DNA from: the human T2T-CHM13v2.0 reference genome, Homo sapiens
Strand: one strand, 5' to 3'
Assembly: GCF_009914755.1 (NCBI RefSeq)
Contig: NC_060927.1
Length of the DNA stretch: 64,000 bases
Part shown: piece by piece, positions 33,183 to 40,358 of the stretch
Numbering within the stretch: position 1 is the stretch's first letter
Layout of the letters: each line of letters begins with the position of its first letter
Notes under the pieces: model-generated
What the model saw: only the letters and a program-made list of their open reading frames with translations
Told to the model about the DNA's origin: nothing
Database searches by the model: none
Program-made: the position numbers and the translations under genes

Positions 33183-33333
33183 AATTTCCATCTTAGTTCA
33201 TTTGTGCTGCTTTAATAAAATACCTGAGACTGGATAAAGAACAGAAATGTATTGCTCACTGTTCTGGAGGCTGGAAAGTTCAAGATCAAGGCTCTGGCAG
33301 GATTGGTGTCTGGTGGAGACTACACGCTGCTTC

Positions 33334-34031
33334 TGAGAGGAGGTTCCAGCTGAGCTTCCTGGGTCAAGTAGGGGCTCAGAAAGCTGTGAAACTCACTCCT
33401 TTCCTGCATCAGGACTTATTTTGGTCTTGGATGAATAATATTGAAGATATATGCTGAAAATATTCCTAACATCAGAATTTGTGCCTCTGTTTTCTTCCCC
33501 AAGAAAGCTATAAACAGTGAAAATTTTGTTGTAAGCTTCCCTGTGTCCTCTCTCCCTCTCTCCCTTCCCCCCCCCTGAAACTAAAAGGAATGTTAAAAGC
33601 CAGTTTTTCTGTGATCAGCAGACCTTATCTATGCTTCCAATTCCAATTCCTTGTAAACACAGTTTGTTAAGTCCTGTGAGATCCTGTCTCCTTTGCCATG
33701 CCACTGCAAGGTCATAAAGTAGATAAACTTAAGTTACAATTCCGGTTCTCCTCAAGATCTGAGACATGTTAATTGTCTTTGTTTCTCGCTCTGGTAACAT
33801 CTTCCCACTGCACGTATTTCCCTCCTTAAAGAGTTTAAAATGTAATTGAAAAATCTAACACTGGCTACCCACTTGGGACCCCTTCCATGCTGTGGAAGCT
33901 TTGTACTGTCACTCTGCTCAATAAAACTTACAGCTTTTTTTCTCTTGGTCTGATCCATGTCTCTCTCTCACCATGGGCGGCCGCCCCACCAAATCTTTGG
34001 CATGGCTAAGGCAAGAACCTTTGGAGTTACA
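33334..34031 (+). promoter_or_regulatory. Complete 5' LTR (698 bp, LTR30-like)
   Basis: Direct repeat of 38374-38763; AATAAA at 33920-33925; ends ttaca immediately before the PBS. Confidence 0.85.
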
Positions 34032-34034
34032 TTT

Positions 34035-34052
34035 TGGCGAGCCAGCCAGGAG
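34035..34052 (+). promoter_or_regulatory. Primer-binding site for tRNA-Arg(ACG)
   Basis: TGGCGAGCCAGCCAGGAG is the reverse complement of the tRNA-Arg(ACG) 3' end (...CTCCTGGCTGGCTCGCCA). Splice donor-like ATG|GTGAGT at 34086. Confidence 0.85.
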
Positions 34053-34380
34053 GATCTCCAGGAAAGGCATCTCGATCCTCACATGGTGAGTACGATTAGA
34101 CCTCTTTCGCTTGCTATTCTGTCCTGTCTTTCCTTAGAATTCAGAGGCTAAACTGGGCACCTGTCAGCCACTTAAAGGCGATTAGCGCGGCCGCCGGACT
34201 AAAGACACGGGTGTCAGGCTGTCTGGAAAAGGGCTGTCTAACAACCCCCGACCCTCCAGGGCTGGGAACGTTGGTTAGTTTGGACCCAGTTCCTACTCTT
34301 TCACTTTCTGTGGTGGTCCCGAAGTACACCCGGGAGTTATCAGTAGACATTCTAGTCTTCCAGATTTCCTGGTTGAGACC

Positions 34381-35261
34381 ATGGCCCCGCCAGAGGCTCC
34401 CCCTGCAAGGGTTACTGAGCGTGAGACCACCACATCTTCTGACCCCTGTCTCCTGGGTCCCAATGTCCACTGGCTAGACTTCTTTTCTCATCTTGCAAGC
34501 AAGGTTATTCCCACTAGGCAGGATCAAGATTCCCTATTTAGAAGTCTTAAATTTTTGGGGTAGTGCCCAGAGGATCCCTGTTCATGGTACCTTCCAGGGT
34601 TTAGGCAGGTATCATCGTTTGATGGCTATTTTAAAGGGCCAGTTCCCCACCATAGGGTATGGTCCCCTACATCAGGACAATTTAAAGACAGGCCTGTAAT
34701 TTTCATGTGAATAGTAAAAACCTTAAGGCATTTCCTCCATTGCTTCCCACATAGGTTTTCCCCTTCCTTAGGGCCTCTCAAGTACAATCTGTGGTGCATG
34801 GGTACAGCTCTTAGAGCCGTTGAATTGCTATTTCAACCATTCAATAGTTGGTATTGGAAGGAAGAAAATATAGTCAGTTGGGACACAGGATACTGGTACT
34901 GCCTTAAGAGAGGGGCTTACTCCTTTGATGGCAAGTGGGGACAGAAGGCTAGAGTACAGCAGCTGTTCTCTCAGCCCTGGCCTAGAAGACATCTACCACC
35001 CCTTTATGCTTACTAAGCCTCCTGTTGCTAATTCAGAGATTCCTCCTTGAAGGACAGTTTTATGGCCAGGCCCACGTAAATTGGGCCTTAGCATGCAAGC
35101 ATCAGTGGTGCCCCAGACCCGGGCCTTGCCACCCTGGAACAGGTAGAATGCATTGGCAGAAGGATCACAATAAATCCAACAGTCCTTGTGCCCCATTTAG
35201 TGGTCAATGGGCGCACAGCAGGGGCAAGGGAAGTTTCCATCCCGCTGGTAAGCATGGTTAA
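34381..35261 (+). pseudogene. Disrupted retroviral pre-gag ORF (~293 codons)
   Basis: Kozak gagaccATGG. One frame runs to ~35000 with only TAG (34561) and TGA (34708); a 1-bp frameshift then joins it to ORF 35025-35261. Confidence 0.65.
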
Positions 35262-35398
35262 ATCCGGTACATGGAGGGCTCAGGAAAAGCAGCCATGAGC
35301 CTTGAGCACAACTGGACCTGACCCTCGGGGGATGCCATAGGGAAGACGAGTCCCAAGACTAACCACGGGTGTGGGAATCCCTGTGTTTAAAATTCCAA

Positions 35399-36851
35399 AT
35401 GGGCACCATGCCTTCAAAACTGGACACTCCCTTAAGATGGGACAAATTCGACCCTGAAACCTTAAAAAAGAAGCGGCTGATTTTCTTCTGTACCACTGCC
35501 TTGCCACAGTATTCCTTACAAAATGGAGAAACTTGACCCTCTGAGGAAAGTATTAATTATAACACCCTTCTACAGCTAGATCTTTTCTGTAAACAGAAAG
35601 GTAAATTTAGTAAAGTCCCTTATGTACAGGTTTTCTTTGCCCTTCGTGACAATACTGCCCTGTGCCAAGCCTGCAAGCTTTGCCCAAATGACAGAGGCCC
35701 ACAGTTGCCTCCACACTCAGGGCCTCTTCCCTCAACCCCACTCTCCTCCCCAACTGACTCTCCTCCATCCGGTCCCACCGAAGTGTTAAAGGCACACCGG
35801 AAAGAGAACGTAAACTCCGTGAGCCAGGCACCCAAACTATCTCCCTTACAAGGGACTATGTCCCTTACAAGGAGGAGAATTTGGGCCCATTCACGTGCAT
35901 GCCCCCTTCTCACTCTCAGATTTAAAACAAATAAAGGCAGATTTAGGGAAATTCTCAAATGATCCTTATAACTATATAGATGTCCTGCAAGGATTGGGGC
36001 AGTCCTTTGATCTAACATGGAGAGATATCATGTTGCTTCTTGATCAGACCTTAAGTCCTACTGAAAAAGAAGCAGCTTTAGCTGTAGCCCGGCAATTTGG
36101 GGATCTGTGGTACTTTAGCCAGGTAAATGATCGAATGACCCCGGAGGAGAGGGAAAAATTCCCCACAGGGCAACAGGCAGCCCCCACTGTAGACCCTTAT
36201 TGGGATACTGACTCAGATCATGGAGATTGGAGCCGCAGGCATTTGCTAACTTGCATTTTAGAAGGGTTGAGGAAGACTAGGAAAAAGCCTATCAACTATT
36301 CAATGCTATCCACAATTACACAGGAAAAAGAGAAAAACCCCTCCGCTTTTCTAGAAAGGCTAAGGGAGGCCCTAAGAAAGCACACCTCCCTAACTCCATA
36401 TTCTGTAGAAGGTCAACTTATTTTAAAGGATAAATTTATCACCCAATCAGTGTCTGGCATAGTCTGCTTTAGGCCCAGAACAAAATTTGGAGACATTATT
36501 AAACCTGGCAACCTTGGTATTCTATAACAGGGACCAAGAGGAACAGGCCAAAAGGGACAAGCAAGATAAGATAAAGGCTGCAGCCTTAGACATGGCCCTC
36601 AGACAGGCAGACCTTGGTGGCTCAGAGGGAACCAAGAGAAGAGGAGGCCAATCGCTTAGTAGGGCTTGTTATCAGTGCAGTTTGCAAGGACACTTTAAGA
36701 AAAATTGTCCAACAAAAAACAAACTGTCCCCTCGCCCATGTCCAATATGCCAAGAAGGTTTGAAAGGAAGGTTTGGAAGGTGCACTGCTCCAGAGGATGA
36801 AGGCCCTCTGGACCAGAGGCACCCAACCAGATGATTCAGCCACAGGACTGA
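35399..36851 (+). pseudogene. gag: ERV gag remnant
   Basis: MGT...[29 protein letters not shown] (QEKEKNPSAFLERLREAL), CCHC knuckle CYQCSLQGHFKKNC, ending QD-TGA; frameshifted. Confidence 0.9.
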
Positions 36852-37486
36852 AGGTGCCTGGGGCAAGTGCCAGCTCATGCCATCACCCACACAGAGTCCC
36901 AGGTAAGGTTGACTGTTGAGGTCCAGGAAGTGGACTTCCTCCTGGACACTGGTGTGGTCTTCTCAGTTTTAATCTCCTGCCCTGAACGACTGTCCTCAAA
37001 GTCCATTACTATCCGAGGAATCTTAAGACAGCCTGTAACCAGGTATTTCTCTTGCCTCCTCAGCTGCCATTAGGAGACTTTGTTCTTTTCACATGCCTTT
37101 CTTGTTATGCCCAAAAGTCCCACACCCTTATTAGGGAGGGACATATTAGCCAAAGCTGGGGCCATTATCTACAGGAATATGGGGAACAAATTACCTATTT
37201 GTTGTCCCTAATTAAAGAAGGAATCAACTTTGAGGTATGGGCCTTAAAACGACAATTTGGAAAGGCAAAGAATGCCCATCCAGTCCAAATCAAGCTAAAA
37301 GACCCCACCACTTTTCCTTATTAAAGGCAATATACCTTAAGGCCTAAAGCTCTCAAAGGATTACAGGATATTGTTAGACATTTAAAAGCTCAAGGTTTAG
37401 TAAGAAAATGTAACAGTCCTTGCAATAACCGAATGCTAGGAATACAAAAAACAAATGGTCAGCAGAGACTAGTGCAAGACCTCAGG
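36852..37486 (+). pseudogene. pol: ERV protease and start of RT (truncated)
   Basis: FLLDTG protease motif, PLLGRDIL, then RLVQDLR, where homology ends. Confidence 0.88.
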
Positions 37487-38363
37487 TTTCACTTGTCTAA
37501 CTTCAGGCATTTTTTTCATCTATAATAACACAGCCTATTGATGCCTAAATGGCACTCTGAAAGAACAATGCTTTCTCTCCTTTCTAGCACCTCCCATGTC
37601 CATATATACTGAACAGGAGTTACAAAGTCTCCTTATACCCCAATCTCGCCACACGTGAGCCCTTATTGTCCCTTTTATTGTAGGAGTCGGAATACTGGGC
37701 AGGCTTGGGACTGGAATTGGAGGCATAACCTCCACCACCAATTTATTATAAATTATCACTAAAATTAAATGATGACATGGAATGAATTGCCAACTCCCTA
37801 GTGACCCTACAAAGCCAGCTTAATTCTCTAGCTGCAGTAGTCCTTCAAAACCGGAGAGCCCTAGACTTATTAACAGCTAAAAAAGGAGGAACTTGCCTCT
37901 TCTTAGGAAAAGAATGTTGCTATTTTGTTAACCAGTCAGGAATCATTACTGAAAAGGTCAAAGAAATAAGAGAACAAATAGAAAGTAGAAAAAAGGAGCT
38001 TGAACACTCAGGGCGCTTGAATATGTTTAACCAATGGATACCTCGGCTCCTCCCCTTTCTAGGCCCTGCGACAGCCATCCTACTCGTTTTTGGGCCTTGC
38101 ATTTTTAACCTCCTTGTCAAATTTGTTTCCTCAGGATCGAGGCCATCAAGGTACAAATGGTCTTACAAATGGAACCTCAAATGAGCTCAACTCACGGCAT
38201 CTACCAAGGACCCCTGGATCGACATACTGGTCTCTGACTAGCCTAAAAAGTTCCCCTCTGGAAGACACCACAACTGCAGGGCCCCTTCTTCGCCCCTCAT
38301 CAGCAGAAAGTAGCCAGAACGACTGCCGCCCAGTTCCCAACAGCAGTTGGGGTGTCCTGTCTA
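37487..38363 (+). pseudogene. env: ERV env remnant (end of SU, TM and tail)
   Basis: Furin site mutated to RHT* (37656), fusion peptide, ISD LQNRRALDLL, CX6CC (CLFLGKECC), TM segment and QMVLQMEP tail. Confidence 0.9.
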
Positions 38364-40358
38364 GAGGGGAGACTGAGAGGAGGTTCCAGCTGGGCTTCCT
38401 GGGTCAAGTAGGGGCTCAGAAAGCTGTGAAACTCACTCCTTTCCTGCATCAGGACTTACTTTGCTCCTGGATGAATAATATTGAAGATATATGCTTAAAA
38501 TATTCCTAACATCAGAATTTGTGTGTGTGTTTTCTTCCCAAGAAAGCTATTAACAGTGAAAATTTTGTTGTAAACTTCCCTGTGTCCTCGCTCCCTCTCT
38601 CCCTTCCGCCCTCCAAAACTAAAAGGAATGTTAAAAACCAGTTTTTCTGTGATCAGCAGACCTTACCTATGCTCCCAATTCCAATTCCTTGTAAACACAA
38701 TTTGTAAAATCCTGTAAGATCCTGTCTCCCTTGCCATGCCGCTGCAAGGTCATAAAGTAGATATACCAATATCTCACCTTCCAAAGGTTACTGCTATTGT
38801 TGTATTGGGGATTAAGTTTCAACATGAATTTTGAAGGGGACACCATTATTTTCAAACCAGAGCAAGGGGTTCAAACCTAAAGGCCAGAGGACCAGTATGG
38901 AGGTCATGGAGAGAGAATGGTGATGAGGATAGATGAGAAATAGTGGCTATAATGAGATATTGGTATATCAAGACATATTTAGGTTGTAGGATTTGGTCAC
39001 TGCTTTGATGTGAGTTGCGGCAGAGAAAGAGGAGTTAAGAATGTAGACCAAGTACGTGGCTTGGGCAACTGAATGATGATGGTATTATTTTCAGAGACAG
39101 GAAACACAGAAGAGAAGCAAGTTTGGGAGGATGGGATAGTGGGTTCAGGAGAAGATAATAAATTCAGTGTTGTAAAGCTAAAATTGAGGTGAAATTGGAT
39201 GTCCAATTTTAGAAATTCAGTAGCAGGAGATTGGGTCTAGGGCATGGTGCTCAGGAGATATTTTTTCTGGAATATATATTTCAGTAAATATTTGGGTATA
39301 TATTTGAAATAAAATTGAATCAGGAGTTTGTGTGAAATGAGAAGAGGGTATTAAGGAACATGGACATTTAAAGAATGGGCAGAGATAAAGGAGACAATAA
39401 AGGAGGCTGAGAAAAAGTGGGCCAAAGAGGTAGGAGGATTGTCAGGAATGTGTCATGTCATGGAAGTCAAGGATGGAGTAGAACAGTGTCAAATGCTGCT
39501 TAGATATCAGGTAGGATAAGAACTGAAAAGCTCATTGATCCCTGGAAGAGCAGGGAACACAAGATAAGCAATCAGGCTACTAAAATGGAATCAATGCAAA
39601 GATGAACATACACATTCTTTACTACCAGGGGCCCATACTGGGACAGTGGCTGATGAAATTTACATCGAAAAGCACTTGGAAGATTTTGAAAGGAACCCAG
39701 GAGCTTTCATCACGGATTGCCAAGTACTTTAATTAAATAGCCTGTGTTTTATCTGACAGTTTCAATTTTATAAAATCCTCTCTTGTTATGTTTGTTTGTA
39801 TCTGTCAGAACTAGTCATCAGATGTTTTTGTTCAAGGAAATATGGTGCTTGTATATTTTAGGAACAGACATGATTAGAACAAGAGATACAACTCACCCTG
39901 TTTTCTACCTTCTTGTACTTAAATGACTTAGACAAGAACATACATGGGTTGCATCTAGAATTCTCTGTCTTCTACTCCTCTCAGGACTCCTTTATTCAGG
40001 CATCTATACCTCAAATCTTCTGCACCAGTATGATGTGTGAGATTTTAGGTAAAGCTAACCTACCATGAATAGAGTAAATGATTGTTCATTGCTGTATTCA
40101 CAGTGCCTGATACAGGTCTGACATATAGTAGGCACTTAACAAATGTTTGTTCAATTAATGGATGAAAGCAAAATGGGAAAATCAATTTTAAGTTTTGTGT
40201 CTAACAAAAAAGGGAAAAAATAAACAAACAAACAAAACAACAAAAACAGCCACAGAAAATATCTTTTGGATGCTTAGAGTTTGTTTTCCTGACCAGTTTA
40301 AAAAATTTATGAGCTGTTCGAGAGCTCAATCATATATCTGAAGTGACCAACAAAAGTC

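What the first reader, a model, noticed from the sequence alone, without database searches (positions are those of the whole stretch)
34381..35261. Hidden ~293-codon accessory ORF in the ERV leader, upstream of gag
Seen: three short track ORFs (34381, 34798, 35025) join into one frame from a strong Kozak ATG (gagaccATGG): MAPPEAPPARVTERETTTSSDPCLLGPNVHWLDFFSHLASKVIPTRQDQDSLFRSLKFLG*CPEDPCSWYLPGFRQVSSFDGYFKGPVPHHRVWSPTSGQFKDRPVIFM*IVKTLRHFLHCFPHRFSPSLGPLKYNLWCMGTALRAVELLFQPFNSWYWKEE...HLPP/LCLLSLLLLIQRFLLEGQFYG...HPAGKHG*. It needs only two stop reversions (plausibly TGG to TAG/TGA) and one base in a C-run near 35000. It is Trp/His/Cys/Pro-rich and resembles no retroviral domain I recognise. 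Known: 'pre-gag' ORFs of unknown function have been reported for ERV-W-related gamma-like ERVs. Inference: a once-functional accessory protein of this virus lineage. It ends ~140 nt before the gag ATG, so gag would need reinitiation, an IRES or splicing from the donor at 34086.
Basis: partly seen in the sequence, partly recalled or inferred. Interest (0 to 1): 0.72.

Follow-up and report, generated by a model that had tools for sequence, protein, structure and literature searches.

The report
Decayed poxvirus-like gene in HERV30 leader

Summary
Window 34381-35261 (+) carries a 293-codon frame broken by two stops (TAG 34561, TGA 34708) and a one-base loss in a C-run (34999-35002).

Across 21 genomic HERV30 copies, the shared frame is 882 columns. 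No internal codon is a stop in more than 6 copies. The other two frames are closed in most copies at 11 and 25 codons.

The protein is 35% identical (E 4e-31 to 1e-37) to a poxvirus protein that occupies the MC132 slot of a 190,289-bp poxvirus contig.

This is exactly the gene published by Zhang, Ni and Frith (Bioinform Adv 2023, PMC9927554): the MC132-like ORF upstream of gag in HERV30.

Added here:
- A sequence fitting the Elongin BC-box pattern sits at one homologous place in HERV30, distant ERV relatives and the poxvirus protein. A Cys-x2-Cys...His-x3-Cys set is also conserved.
- Four in-frame stops, each kept in 14 to 20 of 21 copies, separate the ORF from gag, which argues against a gag fusion.
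- No copy is intact in this assembly.

The fold is unresolved, and how gag is translated remains open.

The parts
33333..33728 (+). Part of the 5' LTR that matches the 3' LTR. The LTR probably runs on to about 33965; that end is inferred, not measured.
   Evidence: 33333-33728 against 38373-38766, 24 mismatches in 394 aligned positions (93.4% over 396 columns).
34086..34091 (+). Splice-donor-like GTGAGT in the leader, upstream of the ORF.
   Evidence: GT kept in 18 of 19 other copies and the hexamer in 14 of 19. Grandi et al. 2020 (PMC6995185, passages seen) state that donor and acceptor sites are conserved at the ends of the HERV-30 pre-gag, with data not shown.
34381..35261 (+). Broken copy of the 293-codon MC132-like pre-gag ORF of HERV30.
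   Evidence: Start ATG kept in 16 of 17 other copies, -3 A in 19 of 19, +4 G in 16 of 17.
34561..34563 (+). In-frame TAG at codon 61.
   Evidence: A stop at this codon occurs in 3 of 21 copies.
34708..34710 (+). In-frame TGA at codon 110.
   Evidence: A stop at this codon occurs in 2 of 21 copies.
34999..35002 (+). C-run holding the private one-base deletion that shifts the frame at codon 207.
35001..35030 (+). Ten codons (family codons 208-217) that fit the Elongin BC-box pattern [TSP]-L-x3-[CSA]-x3-hydrophobic. They lie directly after the frameshift.
   Evidence: pattern taken from PMC6232478. The motif starts helix 209-242 in both AlphaFold models.
35262..35398 (+). Spacer between the ORF and gag. 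In the family it holds three further in-frame stops.
   Evidence: stops in the ORF frame at the places of window 35259, 35268, 35319 and 35360 in 20, 16, 17 and 14 of 21 copies.
35399..36834 (+). gag remnant. It starts MG..., has a stop at 35534-35536, and has further frame changes.
   Evidence: Gag_p30 E 7.1e-16 in 35823-36527 and a weak zf-CCHC in 36463-36834. The gag ATG is kept in 14 of 20 other copies.
37786..38184 (+). env transmembrane-subunit remnant. Most of pol and the env surface unit are missing between about 37500 and 37786.
   Evidence: TLV_coat E 1.7e-32, profile positions 441-559 of 560..
38373..38766 (+). 3' LTR, truncated relative to the 5' LTR.

Best explanation
This is a decayed copy of the MC132-like accessory gene of HERV30, inside an internally deleted provirus (5' LTR, leader, gag remnant, env TM remnant, truncated 3' LTR).

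What is shown: while the virus lineage was active, the leader carried a 293-codon gene between the major splice donor and gag. Its product belongs to one protein family with MC132 of Molluscum contagiosum virus.

What is inferred (about 0.5): the retroviral protein worked like MC132. According to reviews, MC132 binds NF-kB p65 and hands it to the Cullin-5/Elongin B/C ubiquitin ligase for degradation. The ERV protein would dock on Elongin C through the conserved BC-box-like helix at codons 208-217, perhaps stabilised by a conserved C-x2-C...H-x3-C set.

Also inferred: the protein was translated from unspliced leader-containing RNA. gag would then have been reached by removing the pre-gag stretch as an intron, or by internal initiation.

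The window copy itself is dead. It has two stops and a frameshift placed right at the putative BC box, and it differs at 4 of 36 family-wide conserved residues.
For: Open family frame. 882 match columns, and indels almost all private to single copies. No internal stop is shared by more than 6 of 21 copies, against 11 and 25 majority stops in the control frames.

Constraint. Pooled pairwise pN/pS is 0.59 in frame, against 0.82 and 0.81 in the control frames. This used 153 pairs of 18 full-length copies, and 149 pairs were below 1. Variants shared between copies have N/S 1.93, against 3.01 for singletons (Fisher p 0.022).

Homology.
- A profile search of 1.84 billion representatives gave 30 hits. 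One was P0019, 229 aa, E 1.9e-31.
- BLASTP of the window piece against P0019: 35% identity, E 4e-31.
- BLASTP of a full-length copy read with X at its stops: 35% identity, E 1e-37.
- An 80%-identical relative of P0019 lies in a 190,289-bp viral contig between A26/A27-like genes and next to Pox_A28 and Pox_RNA_pol_35. That is the MC130-MC135 neighbourhood listed in PMC8515872.

Print. PMC9927554 describes the same 879-bp ORF upstream of gag in HERV30 and reports 36% identity to MC132.

Mechanism lead.
- MC132 recruits p65 to Cul5/Elongin B/C, according to reviews PMC8399815, PMC8695901 and PMC6115930 (passages seen).
- The BC-box pattern is met at the homologous place in 15 of 20 HERV30 copies, 2 of 2 poxvirus rows and 9 of 12 distant ERV rows. 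In the HERV30 copies it occurs nowhere else except one hit at codon 205.
- 36 residues are shared by HERV30, the poxvirus rows and at least 80% of distant ERV rows. They include C67, C70, H117 and C121.
Against: - No Pfam family matches the ORF. Both AlphaFold models are poor (mean pLDDT 55.2 and 54.4, pTM 0.57), so the fold and the motif's exposure are not established.
- The BC-box pattern is short and degenerate, and it lies in a Leu/Ser-rich stretch.
- I could not read Brady et al. 2015, so I do not know where MC132 binds Elongin B/C.
- The selection signal is modest. Codon-position counts of variants are flat, and control frame +1 also shows a shared-versus-singleton trend (p 0.059).
- The table in PMC8515872 names the gene MC132R among L-strand neighbours, whereas in L022 the homolog is on the same strand as its neighbours.
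- Calling the contig Molluscum contagiosum virus rests on its gene order and on my recall of that genome's length.
- The ORF start is not the first ATG after the donor in 18 of 20 other copies.
Confidence: 0.88

Rival explanations
1. The ORF was an N-terminal extension of Gag, either one long pre-gag-gag frame as Zhang et al. considered or a glyco-Gag-like form, and not a separate protein.
For: In 15 of 21 copies, the distance from the ORF's stop to the gag ATG is a multiple of three (141 nt in 13 copies), so the two are in the same frame. PMC9927554 raises this possibility.
Against: The terminal stop is present in 20 of 21 copies, and three more in-frame stops in the spacer are present in 16, 17 and 14 of 21 copies. 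A fusion would have to read through four conserved stops.
Confidence: 0.05
2. It was a real accessory protein of the MC132 family, but with a different activity in the retrovirus: another target, or no Cullin-5 recruitment.
For: Identity to the poxvirus protein is only 35%. The ERV protein has a roughly 50-residue C-terminal tail that the poxvirus protein lacks. No p65-binding region is known (PMC6115930 passage).
Against: 36 residues and the BC-box-like helix are conserved across the three lineages.
Confidence: 0.35
3. The frame is an accident of a non-coding leader (a packaging or intron sequence) and never made a protein.
For: No Pfam hit. Flat codon-position counts. All 21 copies in this genome are broken.
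Against: A 293-codon frame without majority stops, while both other frames are closed. E 1e-37 to a poxvirus protein. Intact 293-aa versions exist in public protein sets: P0004 and P0005.
Confidence: 0.02

Closest known systems
MC132-like ORF of HERV30, HERV17 and HERV9 (Zhang, Ni and Frith, Bioinform Adv 2023, PMC9927554; whole text read)
   Same: Same gene, same place upstream of gag, same 879-nt length, same start of the protein, and the same poxvirus homolog. Roughly two dozen HERV30 hits in human in both (23 in their Table 2, 21 places), plus many shorter hits in related ERVs.
   Different: The window copy is one of the broken ones. They report one intact copy on chromosome 4 of GRCh38. 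In this assembly, all three chromosome-4 copies that I found carry at least one break.
Molluscum contagiosum virus MC132 (Brady et al. 2015, not held; known to me through reviews PMC8399815, PMC8695901 and PMC6115930, passages only)
   Same: 35% identity over about 220 residues. Shared motifs include the BC-box-like helix and four Cys/His residues.
   Different: It is a poxvirus gene of 229 codons without the ERV protein's N-terminal 19 and C-terminal roughly 50 residues. Its function has been tested; that of the ERV protein has not.
ERV-W pre-gag region with putative ORF and intron (Grandi et al. 2020, PMC6995185, passages seen)
   Same: A long leader between PBS and gag in related gamma-like ERVs, with a donor at its 5' end. 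The authors state that HERV-30 has conserved donor and acceptor sites too.
   Different: The Catarrhine HERV-W putative ORF they describe runs into gag-pro and is a different stretch. According to Zhang et al., HERV17 keeps only frameshifted parts of the MC132-like gene.
Glyco-Gag of murine leukaemia virus and relatives (named in the PMC6995185 passage)
   Same: A protein started in the gammaretroviral leader upstream of the gag ATG.
   Different: Glyco-Gag is continuous with Gag. Here four conserved stops intervene.
Lentiviral Vif (recalled, no call)
   Same: It works like the proposal here: a retroviral accessory protein with a zinc-binding Cys/His set and a BC box that recruits Cullin-5/Elongin B/C.
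   Different: No sequence relationship was tested or is claimed. The target is different.
ERV-V pre-gag gene (mentioned in bioRxiv 10.1101/2024.12.11.627920, one passage seen)
   Same: Another pre-gag coding region in a primate group I ERV.
   Different: Relationship not tested. The genome-wide protein search listed chromosome-19 places, but I did not check whether any of them lies in ERV-V.

Membership tests
MC132-like pre-gag gene of HERV30 (Zhang, Ni and Frith 2023) | Lies between the leader/PBS and gag of an ERV1-type provirus. | tested here: met
   LTR pair. Gag_p30 and TLV_coat downstream. The ORF ends 137 nt before the gag ATG.
MC132-like pre-gag gene of HERV30 (Zhang, Ni and Frith 2023) | Significant protein similarity to the poxvirus MC132. 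| tested here: met
   E 4e-31 for the window piece and 1e-37 for a full-length copy against P0019. A relative of P0019 sits in the MC132 slot of a poxvirus contig.
MC132-like pre-gag gene of HERV30 (Zhang, Ni and Frith 2023) | Shares the 293-codon frame with other HERV30 copies. | tested here: met
   882 match columns and no majority internal stop.
MC132-like pre-gag gene of HERV30 (Zhang, Ni and Frith 2023) | Intact reading frame, i.e. a possibly expressed protein. | tested here: not met
   Two stops and one frameshift in the window copy. It is a relic of the gene, not a working member.
Elongin BC-box substrate adaptors of Cullin-2/5 ligases (functional class) | BC box [TSP]-L-x3-[CSA]-x3-hydrophobic (PMC6232478). 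| tested here: met
   Codons 208-217 fit in the window copy, in 15 of 20 HERV30 copies, in 2 of 2 poxvirus rows and in 9 of 12 distant ERV rows. This is a pattern match only.
Elongin BC-box substrate adaptors of Cullin-2/5 ligases (functional class) | Cullin box downstream of the BC box. | not tested
   No search was made. PMC6232478 notes that viral BC-box proteins can lack it.
Elongin BC-box substrate adaptors of Cullin-2/5 ligases (functional class) | Physical binding to Elongin B/C and Cullin-5, and degradation of a target. | not testable with these tools
   No Elongin C sequence was obtainable. The Skp1_POZ search of the genome gave only SKP1-like retrocopies, so no complex job was sent.
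Glyco-Gag-type N-terminal extension of Gag | Uninterrupted frame from the upstream start into gag. | tested here: not met
   Four in-frame stops are kept in 14 to 20 of 21 copies.

The most novel reading that the evidence does not exclude
The MC132 family, in both its poxviral and retroviral members, is a Vif-like Cullin-5 adaptor. A conserved C-x2-C...H-x3-C set would hold a metal ion, and the helix starting at codon 208 would be the Elongin C docking site. If so, an ancient primate gammaretrovirus carried its own ubiquitin-ligase hijacker against NF-kB. The motif I point to may not have been mapped in print. The three held papers that contain both 'MC132' and 'BC box' gave no location in the passages I read. 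Brady et al. 2015 could not be read.
Probability: 0.4. Interest if true: 0.55.

Novelty: already known. Interest (0 to 1): 0.25.

Why it matters
The gene itself matters. It is an immune-evasion gene shared between a human poxvirus and extinct primate retroviruses, which is a rare case of gene flow between unrelated virus families. It also adds an accessory gene in an unusual place, before gag.

That story was published in 2023, so this window adds one more dead copy.

The pieces added here are small but testable:
- a candidate Elongin C docking helix and a Cys/His set conserved in all three lineages
- evidence that the ORF was separate from Gag
- the observation that this complete assembly holds no intact copy, which bears on the published suggestion that humans may still make the protein

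Tried and rejected
- Pfam scan of the ORF pieces: no family.
- Word-based protein search: 13 close ERV relatives only, no poxvirus protein.
- Two AlphaFold2 runs, with 16 and 40 alignment rows: mean pLDDT 55.2 and 54.4.
- Fold searches gave nothing usable. Foldseek against BFVD had best E 1.0, and the poxvirus relative was not among the 50 rows shown. Foldseek against PDB had best E 2.6. VIA-align wide had best Z 5.1, with generic helical matches. With such poor models this says nothing about the fold.
- A crude acceptor-site score found no convincing acceptor just upstream of gag. The best conserved candidates lie at 34136, which is too near the donor, and inside the ORF, for example at 35199. 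An AG at 34362, 18 nt before the start codon, is kept in 18 of 20 other copies, but its surrounding 18 nt are identical in none of 20.
- The idea that the ORF start is the first ATG after the donor holds for the window, but not for 18 of 20 other copies.
- The ATG that abuts the donor at 34083 is private: it is kept in 2 of 19 other copies.
- Search for an Elongin C stand-in found only SKP1-like retrocopies.
- Brady et al. 2015 is not held.
- I inspected 8 of the 30 profile hits. The other 22 were not looked at one by one.

Full report
**What is there**

The window holds an internally deleted ERV1-type provirus on the + strand.
- LTR: 33333-33728 matches 38373-38766, with 24 mismatches in 394 aligned positions. 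The 3' copy is truncated.
- gag: a remnant follows the leader. It contains Gag_p30 at E 7.1e-16 in 35823-36527 and a weak zinc knuckle.
- env: a transmembrane remnant gives TLV_coat E 1.7e-32 in 37786-38184.
- Most of pol is missing.

According to the hub's table the provirus lies in GPR149, on the opposite strand.

**The observation**

From the ATG at 34381 (gagaccATGG), one frame runs to 35016 with TAG at 34561 and TGA at 34708. A frame shifted by one base is then open from 34986 to the TAA at 35259-35261.

**Is it more than chance?**

A DNA search of the same genome found 21 places including the window, at 84-93% identity. Nineteen are full-length or nearly so, and two are partial. Two of the 21 are identical duplicates (L017 and L018).

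I did not build a consensus. I aligned the copies and used only column occupancy to register frames. The findings were as follows.
- The shared frame is 882 columns, which is 293 codons plus a stop.
- Frame-breaking indels are almost all private to single copies. The window has one, a one-base loss at codon 207. It lies in a C-run that is one base shorter than in all 19 other copies covering it.
- In this frame, 26 internal codons hold a stop in at least one copy. None does so in more than 6 of 21 copies.
- The terminal stop is present in 19 of 19 copies covering it.
- In the two other frames, 11 and 25 codons are stops in at least 11 copies.
- The window's own stops are shared by 3 and 2 of 21 copies.

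The frame was therefore open in the lineage that gave rise to these copies, and each copy broke it separately. Every one of the 21 copies has at least one break. In a protein search of the genome, none of the 104 matches was both full-length and free of stops.

**Constraint**

Pooled pairwise pN/pS among 18 full-length copies (153 pairs; the duplicate and the two partial copies were left out) is 0.59 in frame. It is 0.82 and 0.81 in the two control frames. In frame, 149 of 153 pairs are below 1.

Variants shared by two or more copies are less often amino-acid-changing than singletons: N/S 1.93 against 3.01, Fisher p 0.022. However, control frame +1 shows a similar trend (p 0.059), and codon-position counts are flat. 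Within HERV30 the signal is real but modest, as expected if most differences arose after integration. The stronger evidence for constraint is the deep homology described next.

**What it is**

Pfam has no family for it. A word-based search found only close ERV relatives, two of them intact 293-residue proteins in public sets.

A profile search of 1.84 billion representatives gave 30 hits. I inspected 8 of them. One, P0019 (229 aa), has a different, GC-rich style and matches at E 1.9e-31.
- BLASTP of the window's first 206 codons, with X at the two stops, against P0019: 35% identity, E 4e-31.
- BLASTP of a full-length copy with X at its stops against P0019: 35% identity, E 1e-37 over residues 20-241.

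An 80%-identical relative of P0019 lies in a viral contig of 190,289 bp. Its neighbours are Pox_RNA_pol_35, Pox_A28 and three A26/A27-like genes. This is the order MC135-MC134-MC133-[MC132]-MC131-MC130 given for Molluscum contagiosum virus in PMC8515872.

There are two caveats. That table writes MC132R, while in the contig the gene is on the same strand as its neighbours. And I recall, rather than looked up, that 190,289 bp is the length of that virus's genome.

**Already in print**

Zhang, Ni and Frith (Bioinform Adv 2023, PMC9927554; whole text read) describe exactly this.
- They report protein fossils homologous to MC132 in HERV30, HERV17 and HERV9, always upstream of gag.
- Their reconstructed HERV30 sequence has an 879-bp ORF.
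- They report 36% identity to MC132.
- They report one intact copy on chromosome 4 of GRCh38, and relatives in apes, monkeys and bushbaby.

The start of their protein is the start of the window's ORF.

Grandi et al. 2020 (PMC6995185; passages seen) describe the long pre-gag region of ERV-W relatives as a putative intron. They state that HERV-30 also has conserved donor and acceptor sites (data not shown). A search for later papers holding both 'MC132' and 'endogenous retrovirus' found only the 2023 paper.

**How it probably worked**

Reviews state that MC132 binds p65 and recruits it to the Cullin-5/Elongin B/C ligase for degradation (PMC8399815, PMC8695901, PMC6115930; passages seen). Brady et al. 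2015 itself is not held.

I looked for what the three lineages keep in common. Thirty-six residues are shared by the HERV30-type row, both poxvirus rows and at least 80% of 8 to 29 distant ERV rows. They include C67, C70, H117 and C121, a C-x2-C...H-x3-C arrangement.

Codons 208-217 fit the Elongin BC-box pattern [TSP]-L-x3-[CSA]-x3-hydrophobic of PMC6232478.
- The pattern is met in 15 of 20 HERV30 copies, the window's included.
- It is met in 2 of 2 poxvirus rows.
- It is met in 9 of 12 distant ERV rows. Of the three failures, one misses only the first position and two are decayed. These counts were read from the alignment printed, and one database row may be the same locus as one genome row.
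- In the HERV30 copies the pattern occurs nowhere else, except for one hit at codon 205.

In both AlphaFold models the motif opens a long helix, 209-242, but the models are poor.

This is a lead, not a proof. The pattern is short, the stretch is Leu-rich, and I could not test binding. The Elongin C chain could not be obtained, so no complex job was run.

The window copy's frameshift falls immediately before this motif. The window copy keeps 32 of the 36 conserved residues.

**Relation to gag**

Zhang et al. wondered whether the ORF was really fused to gag. In 15 of 21 copies the gag ATG is in the same frame as the ORF, with a 141-nt distance in 13 copies. But the terminal stop, present in 20 of 21 copies, is followed by three more in-frame stops present in 16, 17 and 14 of 21 copies. 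A fusion is therefore unlikely for HERV30.

The donor GT at 34086 is kept in 18 of 19 other copies, and the hexamer GTGAGT in 14 of 19. The ORF lies downstream of this donor, so it is present only in unspliced RNA or in RNA spliced within the leader.

I found no convincing acceptor just before gag with a crude score. There are many ATGs between the ORF start and gag, most of them kept in most copies, so leaky scanning to gag looks unlikely. How gag was translated stays open among splicing, internal initiation and reinitiation.

**Fold**

No usable match was found in BFVD, in PDB by Foldseek, or in 48,161 PDB representatives by VIA-align (best Z 5.1). Given the low model confidence this is uninformative.

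**Verdict**

The finding is a known gene, and this copy of it is dead.

Noticed in passing
Loci L004 (G000:C4:72666835-72667715), L007 (C4:72711761-72712641), L020 (C4:72242343-72242886): Zhang et al. report one intact copy of the ORF on chromosome 4 of GRCh38. In this assembly, all three chromosome-4 copies that I found carry at least one break, and no match anywhere in the genome is both full-length and stop-free. In L004 the only break is a single one-base deletion, and it is not in a homopolymer run. Whether this reflects an allele difference or a different locus was not resolved.
   Followed up: partly
window 35259-35399 and the same stretch in L002-L021: In 15 of 21 copies the gag ATG lies in the same frame as the pre-gag ORF (141 nt in 13 copies), yet four in-frame stops are conserved between them.
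   Followed up: yes
genome-wide: Besides the HERV30 copies, about 70 further places match the protein at 25-43% identity, mostly over residues 16-100 or 100-250. This fits the HERV17- and HERV9-type fragments reported in print. Twenty were fetched (L023-L042) and used only for conservation counts.
   Followed up: partly
L017 and L018 (G000:C24:17319811-17320683 + and 17077758-17078630 -): Two copies on contig 24 are identical and inverted relative to each other, about 240 kb apart. This looks like the two arms of a large inverted duplication.
   Followed up: no
window 33333-33728 and 38373-38766: The LTR pair differs at 24 of 394 aligned positions (6.1%), and the 3' LTR lacks the last 230 or so bases. 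Copies of the ORF differ from the window by 7-16%. I did not reconcile the LTR figure with the published view that these ERVs spread before apes and Old World monkeys split.
   Followed up: no
window 33973-34089: A 38-codon upstream frame starts at a strong-context ATG (caccATGG) and ends just past the splice donor. An ATG also abuts the donor at 34083. Both ATGs are private or nearly so (kept in 3 of 19 and 2 of 19 other copies), so they are probably decay products.
   Followed up: yes
window 37325-37786: The provirus jumps from a short pol-like stretch to the env transmembrane domain. Most of pol and the env surface unit are deleted. No Pfam match was found for 36852-37525.
   Followed up: partly
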